DNA of 63,675 nucleotides, the filler included, from Globobulimina sp. (lineage: Eukaryota): the NCBI GenBank assembly GCA_003354225.1. It is 53 parts of 53 records of this genome, joined end to end, with 100 filler letters (N's around TTAATTAATTAA, not from the genome) between each part and the next. Parts side by side here need not be neighbours in the genome. Positions count along the whole stretch, not along the records: positions 2,409 to 3,512 come from PIVH01023419.1; 52 more parts are not named here. One strand, written 5' to 3'. A model generated the notes under the pieces. It was not told the origin of the DNA, made no database searches, and saw only the letters and a list, made by a program, of their open reading frames with translations. The first letter of the stretch is position 1. The number at the start of each line of letters is the position of its first letter. This document shows positions 2,309-42,125 of the stretch, piece after piece. A program made the translations under genes and the position numbers.

Positions 2309-2408
2309 NNNNNNNNNNNNNNNNNNNNNNNNNNNNNNNNNNNNNNNNNNNNTTAATTAATTAANNNNNNNNNNNNNNNNNNNNNNNNNNNNNNNNNNNN
2401 NNNNNNNN

Positions 2409-3263
2409 TTGAACGAATGGCCCCATTTATATTCAATCGAAACTAACACGGTCTTAACACCCAAAGGCAACTCATTAAATGGCAATGCATCCGCCGCCTT
2501 TTCTGCATTATACACCGTCTCCATTCTTATATATTACAACATGTTCAACCAAAAAACATTAAATTACCTTTCCGGACTTTTATAAATCCGACTTATTAAG
2601 TACGCAGAAACACGACTAATTTACAAATTTAACATAATAAAAGTGCAGAAAGATAATATTGTAATATTTATTATATACATATATAATGCCTATAATTAAC
2701 TCCTGAGTGTATTTATCGATTAAAGCAATGGTTAAATTATACGCTTCAGCCACATCGATACTGAATGGCGTTGTGCAAACCGCCTCCGCTGCGACAGATA
2801 ATTGTAAACCAATATAATTATTAAATTTATCTAAAGTATCTGTTGAAGCACCGAGGGCTGTTAAGGTTGCGATATCTTCTTTTCCCAAATCTATACCGCC
2901 GCCAATTCGAACACCTCTCAATGTGCCATCATCCAAAGGCTGGCCGCACTTGTTTGATGTCTCCGATTTGTATAAGATTACGTGACCACAACTTGCGAAA
3001 CTTTCCCAACAAAATATAAAATTACGATCGATGGTCGAATCATTGGTACTGACTGAACCATCAACTAAACCGGTTTTGAATAAAATATTTCTATTTTCAA
3101 CACAATAATCTTCAATATCTAAATATGGAAATAAGTGATTTAAATTTGGCTTACAAGTTGATGGCATATCCCAAGAATTTGAACAAGCTTCGGTTCCATC
3201 ATAACATCCAGCTGTAAATACTGATGATGTGCGTAGTATCAAACAAACGACTAAAGCAAGCAT
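2409..3263 (-). CDS. Secreted pesticin C-terminal-like (T4-lysozyme-fold muramidase) domain protein, intron-containing, 3'-partial
   Basis: Signal-like MLALVVCLILRTSSVFTAG; motifs IDRNFIFCWES, GVRIGGGIDLG, LTALGASTDTLDKFNNYIGL, PFSIDVAEA; after splicing (GT at 2700, AG at 2526, optional 48-nt exon 2568-2615) continues METVYNAEKAADALPFNELPLGVKTVLVSIEYKWG. Confidence 0.7.
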
Positions 3264-3654
3264 TGTTGAGTTAGTATTAACGAGGAGTTTAAGAGATAAC
3301 CCCTCCACAAGACTGACAAGAGATATTTACACAAAACGTTGTAGACGACATAAATGGCGGCTGCATTAAGTTGTACATATGAGGTGATTGCATCACAGAA
3401 GTTCAATTACATTATGGCAAGTATTTGCAACCACGTGATTACAACCAATACTGTCAACACACAGAGTGCTTTAGAAATCAATCAATTCCAATAATATATA
3501 AAACGACCTCATNNNNNNNNNNNNNNNNNNNNNNNNNNNNNNNNNNNNNNNNNNNNTTAATTAATTAANNNNNNNNNNNNNNNNNNNNNNNNNNNNNNNN
3601 NNNNNNNNNNNNCGTTTAATTCTCATACCCTCTGATATTATAAGCATTATATTT

Positions 3655-20816: not shown

Positions 20817-21509
20817 TCAGATGCAATGCCATGATTCGGATGTATTTGGTACCGGTGTGTTGTTTGCGGATGTGTTGTTTGCGGATGTACTGGTAACGGA
20901 CATGGCGGTTACGGATGAGAGTCGGGCACCGGTTACATTGGTGCTATCATTGGCAGCGTCAACCATAGCCACATCAGTTGTGGGCGCATATTCATTCACA
21001 AGTACATAGCAGCCGGTCGCTGTGTGTGTAACCAGCACATCAAAGCGGATCTGTATGGCTTTTCTCAGAGCCAATGCCAAGTTAGCAATGCCAGCGCCAA
21101 TGGTATGCACAATGGCACCGGGCGCAATGGTAGCGAACGTCACCTGTGGGTGGGATGGTATGATTACATCTCTACCTTCCTTAATAATAGATATAAGGTG
21201 CTCCAAATATAGGTCCAACATGGCTTCAAATTCCATCTGATTGGATTGCTTTGGGCCATAATAAGTAGTAATCATACCAAGGGCGACAGTACGATCAAAG
21301 TCACCAAAAACTGCAGCCTGTCCACCAGAATATCTACGAGGAGTGCCATGATGTCGGGCAAAGTCAATATCATTATCACCAAAGAGAAATATCGGTTGTC
21401 GATCCATCTCCGCAGCCAATGTCAATTGTTTTTTTGTGATGTATTGTGTTTGCAAAAACACAGTGCCATGTGCTTTGTTATGATTATCATTGTGTGAATT
21501 AGTGTTCAT
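20817..21509 (-). CDS. Intronless protein resembling a phage/virus-associated FGDN..GGQA family
   Basis: IFLFGDN..YSGGQAAV..ALGMITT..DVIIP..HTIGAGIANL; GC-richer than host genes. Confidence 0.5.
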   Translation of the reverse strand: MNTNSHNDNHNKAHGTVFLQTQYITKKQLTLAAEMDRQPIFLFGDNDIDFARHHGTPRRYSGGQAAVFGDFDRTVALGMITTYYGPKQSNQMEFEAMLDLYLEHLISIIKEGRDVIIPSHPQVTFATIAPGAIVHTIGAGIANLALALRKAIQIRFDVLVTHTATGCYVLVNEYAPTTDVAMVDAANDSTNVTGARLSSVTAMSVTSTSANNTSANNTPVPNTSESWHCI

Positions 21510-21672
21510 GTTTTGATTGTTATTAATTATATGCGAGTCTTGCCTTGACAGTTGCTACAAACACACACTTATNNNNNNNNNNNNNNNNNNNNNNNNNNNN
21601 NNNNNNNNNNNNNNNNTTAATTAATTAANNNNNNNNNNNNNNNNNNNNNNNNNNNNNNNNNNNNNNNNNNNN

Positions 21673-22689
21673 ATTGTGCGCTTGGCTGGATTTTGGTTTT
21701 GGTGGCGTCGTCATGGCTTCTTGAAGGGATTTAGCCTGTTCATATGGATCAGTTATATTGGTTTTATTTTTATAATTTAAAAGGGGAATATTATTAGTAT
21801 TTATATCATTTGATTTATTGTTTGATATGGTACGCCAGAATCTGCGGCCATAATCTTTACATGTTTGTATATATTTATTTATTTTATCATTATAAATGGA
21901 TTTGGCTGTTGTGATAGCTTTATATTTTTTCGATTGCAGCTTATTTAAAACTTTTTTGAGTCGTTTGTATTTTGGAAAGATGTGGAAATCCGTATCTTTC
22001 CGCTTCGCGTTCTTTTTTATTCTTTGTATTCTGCGTCTTAGTCTTTTGCATTTTTTCTTTAATTTTTTTATTTTGTTATTCCACCATGGTTTGTGTCCAC
22101 GGTAATAATTTTTATAACCAATTGTTTGTTCTGCTGTGTATAATACGAGATATGTTAGTTGTTCTGTGTATAGATTTGGATCTGGATCAAAAATTGAATC
22201 TTTTATATTAGTTTCAAGCGTTTCTGTGTATTTGCTCCATTTTTTCTGGTCCGAAAGGTTCCAGGTTTTCTTCGTCTCGCTAAAACCAAAAACATTTTCT
22301 ACTTCAAAGGTCGTGGCAATGGGGACGTGGTCTGAGCAAGTCGGATCATATAATGAATGGAGTATACTCCACTTTGTATGAGTGAGGGAATCGGAAATTA
22401 ATGTGAGATCAATTGAGGATTTGGTTTGATATGATTTATGTATATGTGTATAGGATGGATTGGTTACATTTAATATTTGCATTCCAAGGAAGTTGAGTCC
22501 ATCAACAAAGTCGTTGGATTCAGCAGTTGATCGGTTACTGCCCCAAATAGCGTTTGGGATATTAAAGTCGCCAGCAATTATGTTTTTATCTACATTTAAT
22601 GGATAATTAAATAATTGGTCAATATTTGGATTCCTTGGACAGTTATACAGGGAATGGATACAGTAGTGTTCCGGATAAGAGGTACGCAT
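21673..22689 (-). mobile_element. Non-LTR retrotransposon (LINE) ORF2 fragment: apurinic-type endonuclease domain and linker
   Basis: SLYNCP, IIAGDFN..WGS, SSIDLTL, SDHVPI, then KPWWN..FWRTI typical of the region preceding LINE RT. Confidence 0.9.
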
Positions 22690-22885
22690 ATTAGTACTAA
22701 AATATATATTTTATCTAATCATATATTTTGTAAATGGTGGAGCTGTCAAGGGCTAATATATATTTTAGTACTAATANNNNNNNNNNNNNNNNNNNNNNNN
22801 NNNNNNNNNNNNNNNNNNNNTTAATTAATTAANNNNNNNNNNNNNNNNNNNNNNNNNNNNNNNNNNNNNNNNNNNNGATGTTTGA

Positions 22886-27689: not shown

Positions 27690-28515
27690 GTACAGAATTG
27701 CCACCGGCAGAGCTTTAGAATCGTTAACTGGCAAAATAATGCATTGGAGCCAGTTAAACAAAGCCACAAAAGCCTTAGCTTACAGATCGTTGGCCTACAT
27801 TCATAAAAATATTAGAAATGGCAGATTATCGAAATCAGATTGCATAATATTGCCAATATCAGTAATAAATGACTTGCGTTTCTGGCTAAAATGGATTGAA
27901 AATATTAAAATTGTGTCAATGTATACAATTTTAAACAATCCATCAATTAATGTATTTGCAGCAACCGATGCCTGTGAAATTGGAGCAGGTTATGTCATGA
28001 ATTCGTTATTTGCAAAATATAAATTCAATAAAAATGATTTAAATCTTTCCATAAATCAAAAGGAGGCTCATTGCGTCCTTACACTTATTGAGTCACATAA
28101 ACATTTTTTAACTGGTAAATCATTAAAATTATATATTGATAATGCTTCTTGTTATTATTCGATGGTTCGAAAATGGTCGGCATCCTATAATATGATGATA
28201 TTTGTATTCGAATTGTGTTTATTAATGATAAAATATAAGATTTATGTTCATTTTGTATGGTTACCATCGGCCTTTAATTTCTTACCAGACCGTTTATCCC
28301 GTAATAAAATGGCTGAATTTGATGAGTTATGCAATACATTCAATCTTAAATTAGCTGAAACAAAACCTGACTATTTTGGTAGATATCAATTTGCAAATAA
28401 CCCCCAAATGAATTATGAAAATGATATGAATGAATATGCGAATTTCATTAAATGGTTAAAACAGCCTTTAAATATCAGAGCAATATCGCCTTATAAATGT
28501 TATATGAAAATATAA
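27690..28515 (+). mobile_element. DIRS/Ngaro-type (tyrosine-recombinase retrotransposon) Pol: RT connection and RNase H domain
   Basis: LESLTGKIMHW..DLRFWL..ATDACEIGAG..INQKEAHCVL..LYIDN..WLPSAFNFLPDRLSR (D-E-D-D RNase H residues). Confidence 0.85.
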
Positions 28516-38582: not shown

Positions 38583-39375
38583 TTACCAGAACGAATATTG
38601 GAATGAATGAATTGCAGCAATTAAATTCCAACACAACGCTTTGGTTTGTTGTTTTAACTGGGCCCAATGCATTATAGTACCACAGAGGGATTCAAGGGCT
38701 GCGCCAGTGATAACTCTATATTGCAGAGTATATAGGATCAATTGTTTGAAGTTGATATTTGTTTGGAGGGATACCGACCATTTTATTTTGTAAATCAAAA
38801 AAGACCACATATAACACTGCAGATTGACAAGCATGGATATAACCAGATTCTTTCAATGATACTTGAACGTTTAGTTCAGCCATAAGTGTATCAAAACGTT
38901 TCTCCATTTCAATGCAGTCGGCTTCTTTGACTGCACCTAATACAAAGTCATCAATATGAACTAGGGATTTATTTTTCCATTCATGATTAAAGACTTTATT
39001 ATCTAAAATCCATATTAAAATTTGTGCAAAATATTGCGAGTTGGCTGGTGCTGACGCAACACCATAGGGCTGTTTTCTATCACGCCATAATAATCCAAAC
39101 AGGGAATAACAGATATAATCGCTGTCTTCCTCACAAAGTCCGATTTGACGGAAGAAGTCCGAGAGGTCACGGATAGCAAAAAAATTGCAATCAATCAGGG
39201 TTTTTATATATTGCTTTAAATTTGGGAGAGATGGTATTTTGCATTTAATTGGGCGAATCAATTCGTTAATGGAGGAAGTTGATTTGGTTTTGAACGAACC
39301 ATTTCGTATGACACGGAATTTGGTGTATTTGCCCTGTCCGTCTTTGGCACATTTTTTGCGGAACAGAAGTGTGGC
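38583..39375 (-). mobile_element. DIRS/Ngaro-type reverse transcriptase, frameshifted near 38755
   Basis: KFRVIRNGS..SIN, DLSDFFRQIGL, QPYGVASAP, LVHIDDFV; second frame YRVITGAALESLCGTIMHWAQL. Confidence 0.85.
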
Positions 39376-39719
39376 TCTTTTGCTATGTTTTATGGAACAA
39401 TCATTGCGGAAATGTCAACGTGAGATGTAGTGAGTTTATGGAACAGTTTTTAGAAGTGCGGAAACGCAAAGCGGAAAATATATACAGCTCCGCAAAATGA
39501 TTTTTCGAGTTAGCTTTAATAAAATAATTAAATAAAACAATCGCAAACAAAAAACAAACACTCTTGCTTTGCTCTTTCTGTTGGCGTGGTTGTGCTTGTA
39601 GCTGCTGCTTTTCATCATTNNNNNNNNNNNNNNNNNNNNNNNNNNNNNNNNNNNNNNNNNNNNTTAATTAATTAANNNNNNNNNNNNNNNNNNNNNNNNN
39701 NNNNNNNNNNNNNNNNNNN

Positions 39720-40654
39720 ATTATTTGGTAAAATGTTCCAGACAACATAGGCAGAGTTACATTAAAAGAGTTGTTGGTAAAGAGAATGTCTTCTTTTCCC
39801 CTTCATCTCGAAACGCATTAAAGAATAAATATGTCGCATTATCGAATAACGATGATATTGAATTAGAAATGAATGGAACGTTACCATTTAAGATTGCTGG
39901 TGAAGCACCGAAATGTAAAAAATTACAATTTATCAATGACCAGATTAATACGAATGATTGGACTGCCGAGGATTTTCGCGTATTACGAACCGATTTATTT
40001 ATTAATTCCACATTCCGTAAAGCAATCGATGCTTGTCTCGCTAATAAACATAAATTAATCGCAGACGACAGAAACGACCTATTTAATCGCATTTATTTAC
40101 GATTCCAACGACCTTGGCAAGCACGCGCCAAAGAATTAATTGAAACGAGATTATCACAATCCGATATTAAAGACGATGATGATGATATTAATATGTTACA
40201 ATATTATGATGAGGCACGAAAATTCATCTTTATTCGAGGCATTAATGGTAAAGAAGGTAAATCATTTTTAATTAAACATTTAGGTATTAATTATTCTGCC
40301 ATCACCATATCTCCAATGGCTACTATTAATGATATCAAACATATATATAATTACGAAAAAATAGTATTTGTCGATATCCCCAAAAGTATTCGACCAAGCT
40401 CAATATCGAGACAGTTTTGTGGTTTAATTGAACAATTCTTAAATGGTATTTTTGTATCCGGCAAATATAATTCAACCATCAAGACATTTACTCCTCCACT
40501 AATCGTTTGGCTATCAAATTATTACCCAAGTCGTGATAAATTCTCACCAGATAGATATATGGTGTTTGATATTGTCCAGCAAGGAACACAAGATAATGGT
40601 CAAGGTTTAGAATTAGTAGAGAAAACAAGAGAATTTCGTAATAACGAATTATAA
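39720..40654 (+). CDS. rep: CRESS-DNA virus-like replication initiator (Rep) with SF3 helicase, 5'-partial
   Basis: RPWQ, Walker A GINGKEGKS, Walker B VFVDIP, IEQFLNG..SGKY, motif C WLSNYYP, Arg finger SPDRY; no introns. Confidence 0.8.
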
Positions 40655-40922: not shown

Positions 40923-41885
40923 CGGAGAACCTAGACATTGGGAAACTGACAGAACGGTCGTCAAATCGGAGCGGATATATCGGTCTTTAGCAGCATCAGA
41001 TTTCCAGCGACCACGGGCTTTAAGGAGATGAGCAGGAACACCATGATTGGCAGCTGAAGTAGCTCCACCAGACCGGAAACTGTGGGTACCATAATCGGAT
41101 GGATCGGTGCCAATAGACTGTAAACCAGACTGAAGCAGTTCACGAGCACGGCCATAACTCAGGGCTCGATTGATTAGACGTTCACCTGTCGAATCGTGAC
41201 GAATAACGCGGAAAAGAGGCAATGTAGAGTCAGAGGTATACAATGAGCCAAGGTCCATATACTGACGGAGGGCTTGGTAGGGACACAAATCGTCTAATGT
41301 TTTAGCCAAATATACTTTCTGTCCAGCCCCAAATTGGTCTGTTTTACTGCGGGGAATAGATAGAACCAAATATTTATCATGGAATTGAACGTCAGCCACA
41401 CGAAGAGCACTAAGGTCCGCAAAACGCAGAAATCCAAAAAAGGAAACTAAGCAATATGCGATAAAACGAACGTTTGTTAAAGTAGGTGAGGAAAAATACT
41501 GCACCAGTTTACGCAAAAGATCAGACGAAATAGCTTGCTTCTGTCGGATGGGATGCCCAACTCGACGTTGTGCTTGAATGACAGCTTTACATACAAAATG
41601 TGTTGTAGGGTCCGGAAGGCCACAGACCTTATGGGCCCAACCAATGGACGAAAGGTAAACTTGCAAGGTAGATGGCATAAGGCCTTTTGAACGGCACTGT
41701 TCCAGAAAAAGTGCAATAGAGACGGAATCGGCTGGAATTACTGCATAGCCAAATGACTCCGCCCAGTGAAGCCACCGAAGAAAATTCGTGCAATAAGTAT
41801 GTACTGTATTGGGTGCATGAGATGCCATAACGGTGCTGATCAAATGGTGCGTTTCGGGACGATCCCGCCAAATACCATATTGCAT
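40923..41885 (-). mobile_element. Tyrosine recombinase of a DIRS-order retrotransposon
   Basis: SAM-like N-terminal domain, FFGFLRFAD (R), PRSKTDQ (K), GTHSFRSGGAT (HxxR), GRWKS, DRYI (Y). Confidence 0.9.
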
Positions 41886-42125
41886 GAGAACTGAAATAAC
41901 AAAGGGTGGGTGGGCGGGATCTGATTATGGCTGATTTAGATAAACGACAAAAAGAATGAAATAGCCAAGAACGAACGAACGGCCGGATTTCGTCTACCAA
42001 AACGCCGTGAATGAATAGGCTTCTCNNNNNNNNNNNNNNNNNNNNNNNNNNNNNNNNNNNNNNNNNNNNTTAATTAATTAANNNNNNNNNNNNNNNNNNN
42101 NNNNNNNNNNNNNNNNNNNNNNNNN

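What the first reader, a model, noticed from the sequence alone, without database searches (positions are those of the whole stretch)
2409..3263. Intron-containing, secreted pesticin-type muramidase in a microbial eukaryote
Seen: signal peptide, Cys-rich N-terminal region, then IDRNFIFCWES..GVRIGGGIDLGKEDIATLTALGASTDTLDKFNNYIGLQ..PFSIDVAEA, and after GT-AG splicing ..YNAEKAADALPFNELPLGVKTVLVSIEYKWG. Known: the pesticin C-terminal domain (bacteriocin and T6SS effector, T4-lysozyme fold) has the pattern IDFxFIxxxEG..SGVTIxxGxDLG..LP..QTVIxSVxFQYG with catalytic Glu, Thr and Asp. Here Glu and Asp are kept but the Thr position is Arg, with a Cys-containing insertion. Inference: a domesticated bacterial toxin domain used for digesting or recognising bacterial prey; introns argue against contamination. 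The Thr-to-Arg change may mean altered chemistry or a binding-only role.
Basis: partly seen in the sequence, partly recalled or inferred. Interest (0 to 1): 0.72.

Follow-up and report, generated by a model that had tools for sequence, protein, structure and literature searches.

The report
Foraminiferal lysozyme-adhesin with remodelled active site
A single-celled marine eukaryote carries a spliced gene that joins a bacterial-type cell-wall-cutting domain to an adhesion domain, and in this lineage a residue that the bacterial enzyme needs for cutting has been replaced, so the protein may hold on to bacteria rather than lyse them.

Summary
The gene is real, but only its 5' third lies in the window, on a 1,104-base contig between artificial linkers. 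Exon 1 matches Pfam Pesticin (E 1e-10) and its model matches the pesticin fold (Z 11.3). One intron, 2700-2526, is supported by spliced contigs in three RNA-like runs, a paralogue and profile scores; the two-intron model is not.

Other contigs and relatives give the full protein: signal peptide, Cys-rich cap, pesticin domain, VWA/MIDAS domain, beta domain and usually a membrane anchor. It nests among Bolivina and Nonionella proteins (100/98), so it is an inherited foraminiferal family, with relatives in a hemichordate, not a fresh capture.

Glu and Asp are kept. Thr201 is Arg here and Arg or Lys across a four-member subclade, against Thr in 44 of 44 prokaryote/phage domains; Pro187 and Gln301 are lost too. 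Best reading: a surface lysozyme-adhesin whose subclade binds peptidoglycan but cuts it poorly (untested). This copy may join a frameshifted 3' contig. No paper on the family turned up in ten searches, and this scan had not noted it before.

The parts
2701..3263 (-). Exon 1 (187 codons plus 2 bases): signal peptide, Cys-rich cap, N-terminal lobe of the pesticin-type lysozyme domain
   Evidence: structure model
3207..3263 (-). Predicted signal peptide, about residues 1-19; ATG at 3263 is matched in the paralogue and in P0001
   Evidence: hydropathy; alignment; cleavage site inferred, no predictor run
3039..3206 (-). Cys-rich N-terminal cap (residues 20-75), shared with Bolivina and Nonionella homologues; no Pfam match
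3003..3005 (-). Glu87, equivalent of pesticin Glu178 (general acid), kept
2976..2978 (-). Ile96 at the pesticin Pro187 position (GYVP motif of homologues reads GHVI)
2907..2909 (-). Arg119 at the pesticin Thr201 position; Lys in the paralogue and in most laid RNA-like contigs
   Evidence: aligns with Ala of the T201A chain 4arm
2889..2891 (-). Asp125, equivalent of pesticin Asp207, kept
2526..2700 (-). Single 175-nt GT..AG intron, phase 2, GC 23% against 37% in exon 1
2409..2525 (-). Start of exon 2, cut by the contig end; part of a 119-nt stretch (2409-2527) identical in C1096 and at the start of C23970
2426..2428 (-). Lys at the pesticin Gln301 position (Lys or Arg in all foraminiferal-clade rows that cover it)
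3082..3195 (.). Stretch present as an inverted 99% copy at the end of contig C23970, joined at a short microhomology
2309..2408 (.). Artificial 100-base linker; sequence to its left belongs to another contig
3513..3612 (.). Artificial 100-base linker; sequence to its right belongs to another contig

Best explanation
The locus is the 5' part of one copy of a small foraminiferal multigene family. The full product is exported by its signal peptide and carries a disulfide-rich cap, a pesticin-type (T4-lysozyme-like) domain, a VWA domain with a metal-binding MIDAS motif, a beta-sandwich domain and, in at least one copy, a C-terminal transmembrane helix with a short tail. Shown: domain order, splicing, family position, residue changes. 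Inferred: it is displayed on the cell surface or pseudopods, or in food vacuoles. The ancestral Thr-type members cut bacterial peptidoglycan while the VWA domain grips a partner or the substrate. In the subclade holding this gene, Thr201 has become Arg/Lys and other cleft residues have changed, so the domain most likely binds the anionic wall polymer but hydrolyses it weakly or not at all, acting as a capture or recognition receptor for bacteria.
For: Domain order: C23970 starts with the same 119 nt and continues into the rest of the pesticin domain and a VWA domain; C11211 carries VWA with DESGS..T..LTDG, the beta domain and a 19-residue hydrophobic segment (KD 3.1) followed by 30 residues. 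Pesticin plus VWA occur in one chain in 8 of the 20 homologues scanned. Pesticin mutants E178A, T201A and D207A are inactive, and P187A and Q301A keep 10% (PMC3390615 section 34); this gene keeps Glu and Asp and has lost Thr, Pro and Gln. Thr is in 44 of 44 prokaryote/phage rows but 14 of 26 eukaryote-type rows, and Arg/Lys marks a four-row subclade (98/89) inside a nine-row clade with the named foraminiferal proteins (100/98). In runs X1-X3 the laid contigs covering the codon read Lys or Arg, and these account for the depth there, so Arg is not a sequencing error. The VWA-side exon is under purifying selection between two copies (dN/dS 0.41, p 0.008).
Against: No activity or binding was measured. 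Glu and Asp are both kept in every row of the subclade, as expected of an enzyme. In T4 lysozyme, changing the equivalent Thr to His gave an active enzyme with a new mechanism, though Thr to Glu was inactive (PMC5606550 passages). Exon 1 of the two genomic copies has dN/dS 0.65, not distinguishable from neutral (p 0.08), which fits decay as well as diversification. Which 3' contig belongs to this 5' half is unresolved, and one 3' path is broken. Anchors vary: P0023 and P0027 have none. The prokaryote set came mostly from one query (P0021), so 44 of 44 overstates independence.
Confidence: 0.5

Rival explanations
1. The Arg/Lys subclade is still an active glycosidase with changed chemistry or substrate, for example a transglycosylase-like reaction or another beta-1,4-GlcNAc polymer, using Glu87 and Asp125.
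For: Glu and Asp are kept in all four subclade rows. The Thr position controls mechanism in T4 lysozyme: T26H switches inverting to retaining and adds transglycosylation. Lys occurs at this column in two further, separate rows, P0013 and P0020. Spliced contigs exist in three RNA-like runs.
Against: T201A abolishes pesticin activity. Arg and Lys are long and are poor nucleophiles (general chemistry, recalled). Pro187 and Gln301 are lost as well.
Confidence: 0.25
2. The window's copy is the 5' half of a decaying pseudogene: it runs into C23970 and C9690, which are frameshifted and carry an early stop, while the working copies are C1096-like 5' halves joined to C11211 or C32970.
For: C23970 has one extra base in a T run and an in-frame TGA, and C9690 lacks one base, each against C11211. 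C23970 ends in an inverted copy of window 3082-3195 at 99% identity, against 80% to C1096; amplification chimeras usually join nearby DNA (recalled), which hints that the two lie in cis. Exon 1 dN/dS is 0.65.
Against: Exon 1 is open for 187 codons with intact splice sites. Contigs about 97% identical over 2704-3083 that keep the Arg codon occur in X1 and X2, with a similar one in X3 (records 5, 9, 21). The 119-nt overlap with C23970 is shared equally by C1096. The lesions were not checked against reads. The residue change is shared with other copies, so this rival concerns this copy, not the subclade.
Confidence: 0.3
3. The sequence is bacterial or phage contamination, or a very recent gene transfer into this organism.
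For: Pesticin domains are best known from bacteria and phages. The assembly is fragmented.
Against: A spliced intron; a paralogue on a contig with other eukaryote-like membrane-protein ORFs; closest named relatives are Bolivina and Nonionella proteins at 41-45%; nested clade 100/98.
Confidence: 0.02

Closest known systems
Pesticin activity domain of Yersinia (PF16754; PDB 4aqn/4epf) and pesticin-like T6SS effectors such as VgrG3cp
   Same: Profile match above cut-off; same fold (Foldseek E 2e-4; Z 11.3, rmsd 2.7 over 104 residues); Glu178 and Asp207 equivalents kept.
   Different: No receptor-binding, translocation or VgrG domain; has a signal peptide, Cys-rich cap, intron, VWA and anchor. Thr201 is Arg, Pro187 Ile, Gln301 Lys. 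Glu-to-Thr spacing is 32 residues against 23.
Foraminiferal and other eukaryotic pesticin-domain proteins in databases (Bolivina P0002/P0005/P0023, Nonionella P0004, Saccoglossus XP_002740238.1 and XP_077870017.1)
   Same: 41-45% identity to the foraminiferal ones over exon 1, with the same cap and the same pesticin-VWA-beta order. All are unnamed or 'uncharacterized'.
   Different: P0002, P0003 and P0027 keep Thr and the GYVP motif; P0004 and P0005 have Ile and Leu. The hemichordate proteins are tandem repeats of 3-4 pesticin domains without VWA.
Bivalve co-opted phage lysozymes (BCPL; PMC5303276)
   Same: A phage- or bacterial-type lysozyme adopted by a eukaryote, with intron gain, duplication and gene fusion.
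   Different: BCPL are described as T4-lysozyme-like with shown bacteriolysis; the paper's text has no mention of pesticin. Here the domain is pesticin-type, fused to VWA, and its activity is untested.
VWA/MIDAS surface adhesins (integrin I domains, collagen VI, MIC2, anthrax toxin receptors)
   Same: The VWA domain of homologue P0002 matches these by sequence and fold; the MIDAS motif is intact in C11211; type I membrane topology in some copies.
   Different: None of the listed matches carries a lysozyme-fold domain; the VWA part lies outside the window.

Membership tests
Pesticin C-terminal domain (PF16754) | Profile score above the curated cut-off | tested here: met
   42.3 bits against 25.8 for exon 1 alone; exon 2 continues the model
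Pesticin C-terminal domain (PF16754) | Pesticin-type lysozyme fold | tested here: met
   Foldseek E 2.1e-4 to 4epf; VIA-align Z 11.3, next hit 4.1; exon 1 only; full-length homologue P0002 aligns to 4aqn over 192 columns
Active pesticin-type muramidase | Glu178 | tested here: met
   Glu87
Active pesticin-type muramidase | Asp207 | tested here: met
   Asp125
Active pesticin-type muramidase | Thr201 | tested here: not met
   Arg119; the column aligns with Ala in the T201A chain
Active pesticin-type muramidase | Pro187 and Gln301 (strictly conserved in PMC3390615) | tested here: not met
   Ile96 and Lys
Active pesticin-type muramidase | Cleavage of the MurNAc-GlcNAc bond | not testable with these tools
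   needs an assay
Pesticin bacteriocin / T6SS effector | Translocation and receptor domain, or VgrG carrier | tested here: not met
   N-terminus is a signal peptide and a 55-residue cap with no Pfam hit
GH24 / T4 lysozyme proper (incl. bivalve BCPL) | Close structural or profile match to T4-type lysozyme | tested here: inconclusive
   Only Z 2-4 matches with a half-domain model; no Phage_lysozyme Pfam hit; BCPL sequences were not placed in the tree
Eukaryotic pesticin-VWA family (foraminiferal clade) | Phylogenetic nesting with named foraminiferal members | tested here: met
   nine-row clade 100/98
Eukaryotic pesticin-VWA family (foraminiferal clade) | VWA domain with MIDAS in the same chain | tested here: inconclusive
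   Met for the family in this genome; for this copy the link rests on a 119-nt overlap shared by two 5' halves

The most novel reading that the evidence does not exclude
Pesticin-VWA proteins are an old, undescribed eukaryotic family of surface lysozyme-adhesins present in Rhizaria and, from one origin, in animals (one eukaryotic clade is not rejected, p-AU 0.46). A foraminiferal subclade has turned the enzyme into a peptidoglycan receptor by replacing the catalytic Thr with a basic residue, giving these protists a way to hold or sort bacteria without lysing them.
Probability: 0.25. Interest if true: 0.8.

Novelty: new variant of a known kind. Interest (0 to 1): 0.56.

Why it matters
Eukaryotes are known to adopt bacterial and phage wall-cutting enzymes, but I found no paper on a pesticin-type domain in eukaryotes or on its fusion to a VWA adhesion domain. 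The family gives a concrete candidate for how foraminifera catch, digest or tolerate bacteria. It also offers a natural set of variants at an essential catalytic position (Thr, Arg, Lys, Ile, Leu, Asn) for testing how this lysozyme fold works and how an enzyme becomes a receptor.

Tried and rejected
Two-intron model (2700-2616 plus 2567-2526): open in frame but adds 16 residues, scores lower, and no joint supports it. Neighbourhood analysis inside the window: meaningless, because flanking DNA comes from other contigs; a profile scan of the window found no second copy. Word-seeded protein searches were weak: 0 of 980 candidates among longer proteins, 1 of 86 at near length, 2 of 1030 with P0002. 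Metagenome scan with P0002: 0 of 55 candidates confirmed. Viral scan with P0017: 0 of 114. No run is on record as RNA ('no RNA holder listed'); X1-X3 are RNA by guess, and contig depths were not used to rank expression. ESM Atlas hits were all under 0.9, so leads only: pesticin clusters for the N-terminal part, unnamed or PPC-like eukaryotic clusters for the beta domain. Donor search: the backbone of the tree is open and the test of one eukaryotic clade is neutral. No Thr-type 5' half was found in this fragmented assembly; this does not show absence. Literature; no listed title or abstract start describes a eukaryotic pesticin family; one search was uninformative (none of the 30 listed papers held the word). 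Earlier notes of this scan: none by the five-word query or by sequence; two prokaryotic notes by 'pesticin' that do not bear on this.

Full report
Setting. The window is 53 contigs of 1,102-1,104 bases joined by 100-base linkers. The finding fills one of them, window 2409-3512, which is the whole of contig C23419 in a 70 Mb, 48,370-contig assembly. Flanking window sequence is therefore not genomic context, and the gene is cut at 2409.

On the minus strand an ATG at 3263 opens 187 codons with a hydrophobic start and nine Cys. Residues 115-185 match Pfam Pesticin positions 31-101 at E 9.7e-11, and the downstream piece matches positions 110-137 at E 6e-4. An AlphaFold model of exon 1 (13-row alignment, mean pLDDT 77) finds pesticin first by Foldseek (E 2.1e-4) and by an exhaustive structural search (Z 11.3, rmsd 2.7 over 104 residues, next hit Z 4.1). 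The spliced protein itself was not folded; the full-length homologue P0002 was, and it matches both VWA domains and pesticin.

Splicing. Four runs were laid. X1, X2 and X3 (RNA by guess; two samples, two studies) have no depth over 2557-2667 and join 2525 to 2704 with three letters between, which is an exact skip of 2526-2700 with one silent difference. Two further joints (to 2706 and 2707, with five and six letters between) give the same skip. X4 covers the intron, holds pieces identical to the window, and shows one other joint (2527 to 2692) with unknown letters between. The laid contigs are mostly related copies rather than this exact allele: 12 of 76, 11 of 98, 0 of 12 and 8 of 13 are 99% alike or more.

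The rest of the gene. C23419 and C1096 end in the same 119 bases, with which C23970 begins. C23970 completes the pesticin domain and enters a VWA domain. C11211, C32970 and C9690 are further 3' parts. C11211 is open through a VWA domain with DESGS, Thr and LTDG, a beta domain and a hydrophobic segment followed by 30 residues. C23970 has an extra base and an early TGA, and C9690 lacks a base, so one copy in the assembly is broken, unless these are assembly errors. C23970 ends in an inverted 99% copy of window 3082-3195, joined at a short microhomology. I read this as an amplification chimera, which from recalled knowledge tends to join nearby DNA; it hints, without proving, that the window's 5' half belongs to the broken path.

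Relatives. A full HMMER scan gave 21 hits at E 0.001 or better. The named ones are Bolivina argentea (P0002, P0005, P0009/P0023), Nonionella stella (P0004) and Saccoglossus kowalevskii (P0006, P0008); ten more that were looked up carry no name. Of 20 homologues scanned, 19 have a Pesticin hit and 8 have Pesticin plus VWA. C-terminal anchors vary from none to several helices.

Tree. Of 87 extracted domains, 17 were dropped as short or redundant. Among the 70 kept, the window gene lies in a nine-row clade with the named foraminiferal proteins (100/98), and within it in a four-row subclade with C1096, P0001 and P0007 (98/89). The organism is therefore most likely a foraminifer and the gene inherited. 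The label 'eukaryote-type' for unnamed rows, and 'prokaryote/phage' for P0017 and P0021, is my inference from architecture and similarity. One clade of all 26 eukaryote-type rows is neither found nor rejected (p-AU 0.46), several branches are long, and no donor is resolved.

Active site. In pesticin, E178A, T201A and D207A are inactive and P187A and Q301A keep a tenth of the activity (PMC3390615; passages and all of section 34 read, supplements not read); the paper aligns Thr201 with T4 lysozyme Thr26. The equivalent of Asp207 is also essential in VgrG3cp (PMC9927483, passages). The window's Arg119 aligns with the Ala of the T201A structure and Asp125 with Asp207; Glu87 aligns with Glu178 through the family profile. 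At the Thr column, 44 of 44 prokaryote/phage rows have Thr; these were gathered mostly with one query and include near-copies. Of 26 eukaryote-type rows, 14 have Thr, 4 Lys, 2 Arg, 2 Asn and one each Gln, Met, Leu, Ile. The four-row subclade has Arg or Lys and has also lost Pro187 and the Ser before the GVT motif; three of the four have lost the Tyr, and the alignment of the fourth, P0007, is poor there. The Gln301 column is Lys or Arg in the foraminiferal rows that cover it. In X1-X3 the contigs over the codon read Lys, or Arg in low-depth contigs close to the window, and together they account for the depth there.

Selection. Exon 1 of the two genomic copies gives dN/dS 0.65 over 183 codons, not separable from neutral (p 0.08); a VWA-side exon of two other copies gives 0.41 over 168 codons (p 0.008). 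This fits either diversification or relaxation of the lysozyme half.

Mechanism. Shown: architecture of the family, splicing, nesting and residue changes. Inferred: export and surface display, a bacterial-wall ligand, and loss or weakening of hydrolysis in the Arg/Lys subclade, leaving a basic cleft that binds peptidoglycan while the VWA domain adheres. I give this 0.5. An enzyme with altered chemistry (0.25) has a precedent: T4 lysozyme T26H is active with a new mechanism, while T26E is inactive (PMC5606550, passages). That this copy is a pseudogene (0.3) is compatible with either reading of the subclade.

Comparison and novelty. It is a member of the PF16754 domain family by score and fold, but fails the Thr, Pro and Gln tests for an active pesticin-type muramidase and is not a bacteriocin. 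It works like the bivalve co-opted phage lysozymes in being an adopted wall enzyme with introns, duplications and fusions (PMC5303276, passages). Ten literature searches (seen as listings with abstract starts) showed no description of eukaryotic pesticin domains or a pesticin-VWA fusion; 'pesticin' with 'foraminifera' gave 0 papers. The library lacks most subscription papers, and supplementary gene tables were not searched. Members sit in public databases as uncharacterised proteins. I rate it a new variant of a known kind, interest 0.56.

Noticed in passing
L005 (G000:C23970) 445-480, 919-921, 969-1084; L062 (G000:C9690) 1-64: A broken 3' path of the family: two single-base frameshifts and an early TGA against C11211, plus an inverted junction into a 99% copy of window 3082-3195.
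   Followed up: partly
P0006 and P0008 (Saccoglossus kowalevskii): Tandem arrays of 4 and 3 pesticin domains; all four P0006 domains lack the Thr and three lack the Glu, while P0008 keeps the triad and adds WSC domains. A second case of apparent catalytic loss.
   Followed up: partly
P0004, P0005 (Nonionella, Bolivina): Pesticin-VWA ectodomain fused to three or four transmembrane segments and a long cytoplasmic region, with Ile or Leu at the Thr position; receptor-like.
   Followed up: partly
P0002 residues 450-605; L007 downstream of the VWA domain: Conserved beta-sandwich domain with no Pfam hit; weak Atlas leads to PPC-like eukaryotic clusters.
   Followed up: partly
L003 2407-3603: A 398-residue multi-pass membrane ORF, GPCR-like by eye, ends about 80 bases upstream of the paralogue's start; no Pfam hit.
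   Followed up: no
window 39722-40654 (+): ORF with a Walker A-like GKEGKS and downstream motifs that recall a superfamily 3 helicase of small circular-DNA replicons (recalled resemblance); no Pfam hit at 0.001.
   Followed up: partly
window 40923-41924 (-), 38719-39414 (-), 27691-28512 (+), 21673-22710 (-): Mobile-element pieces on separate contigs: tyrosine recombinase, reverse transcriptase, RNase H (DIRS-like by inference; all below curated cut-offs) and a LINE-type endonuclease.
   Followed up: partly
L025/L026 (G001:C1 about 4072285-4072724): A bacterial pesticin-domain gene split into two reading frames with an internal stop.
   Followed up: no
window 20817-21554 (-): A 245-residue ORF on a contig of 44% GC, above the usual 27-39%; no Pfam hit.
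   Followed up: no
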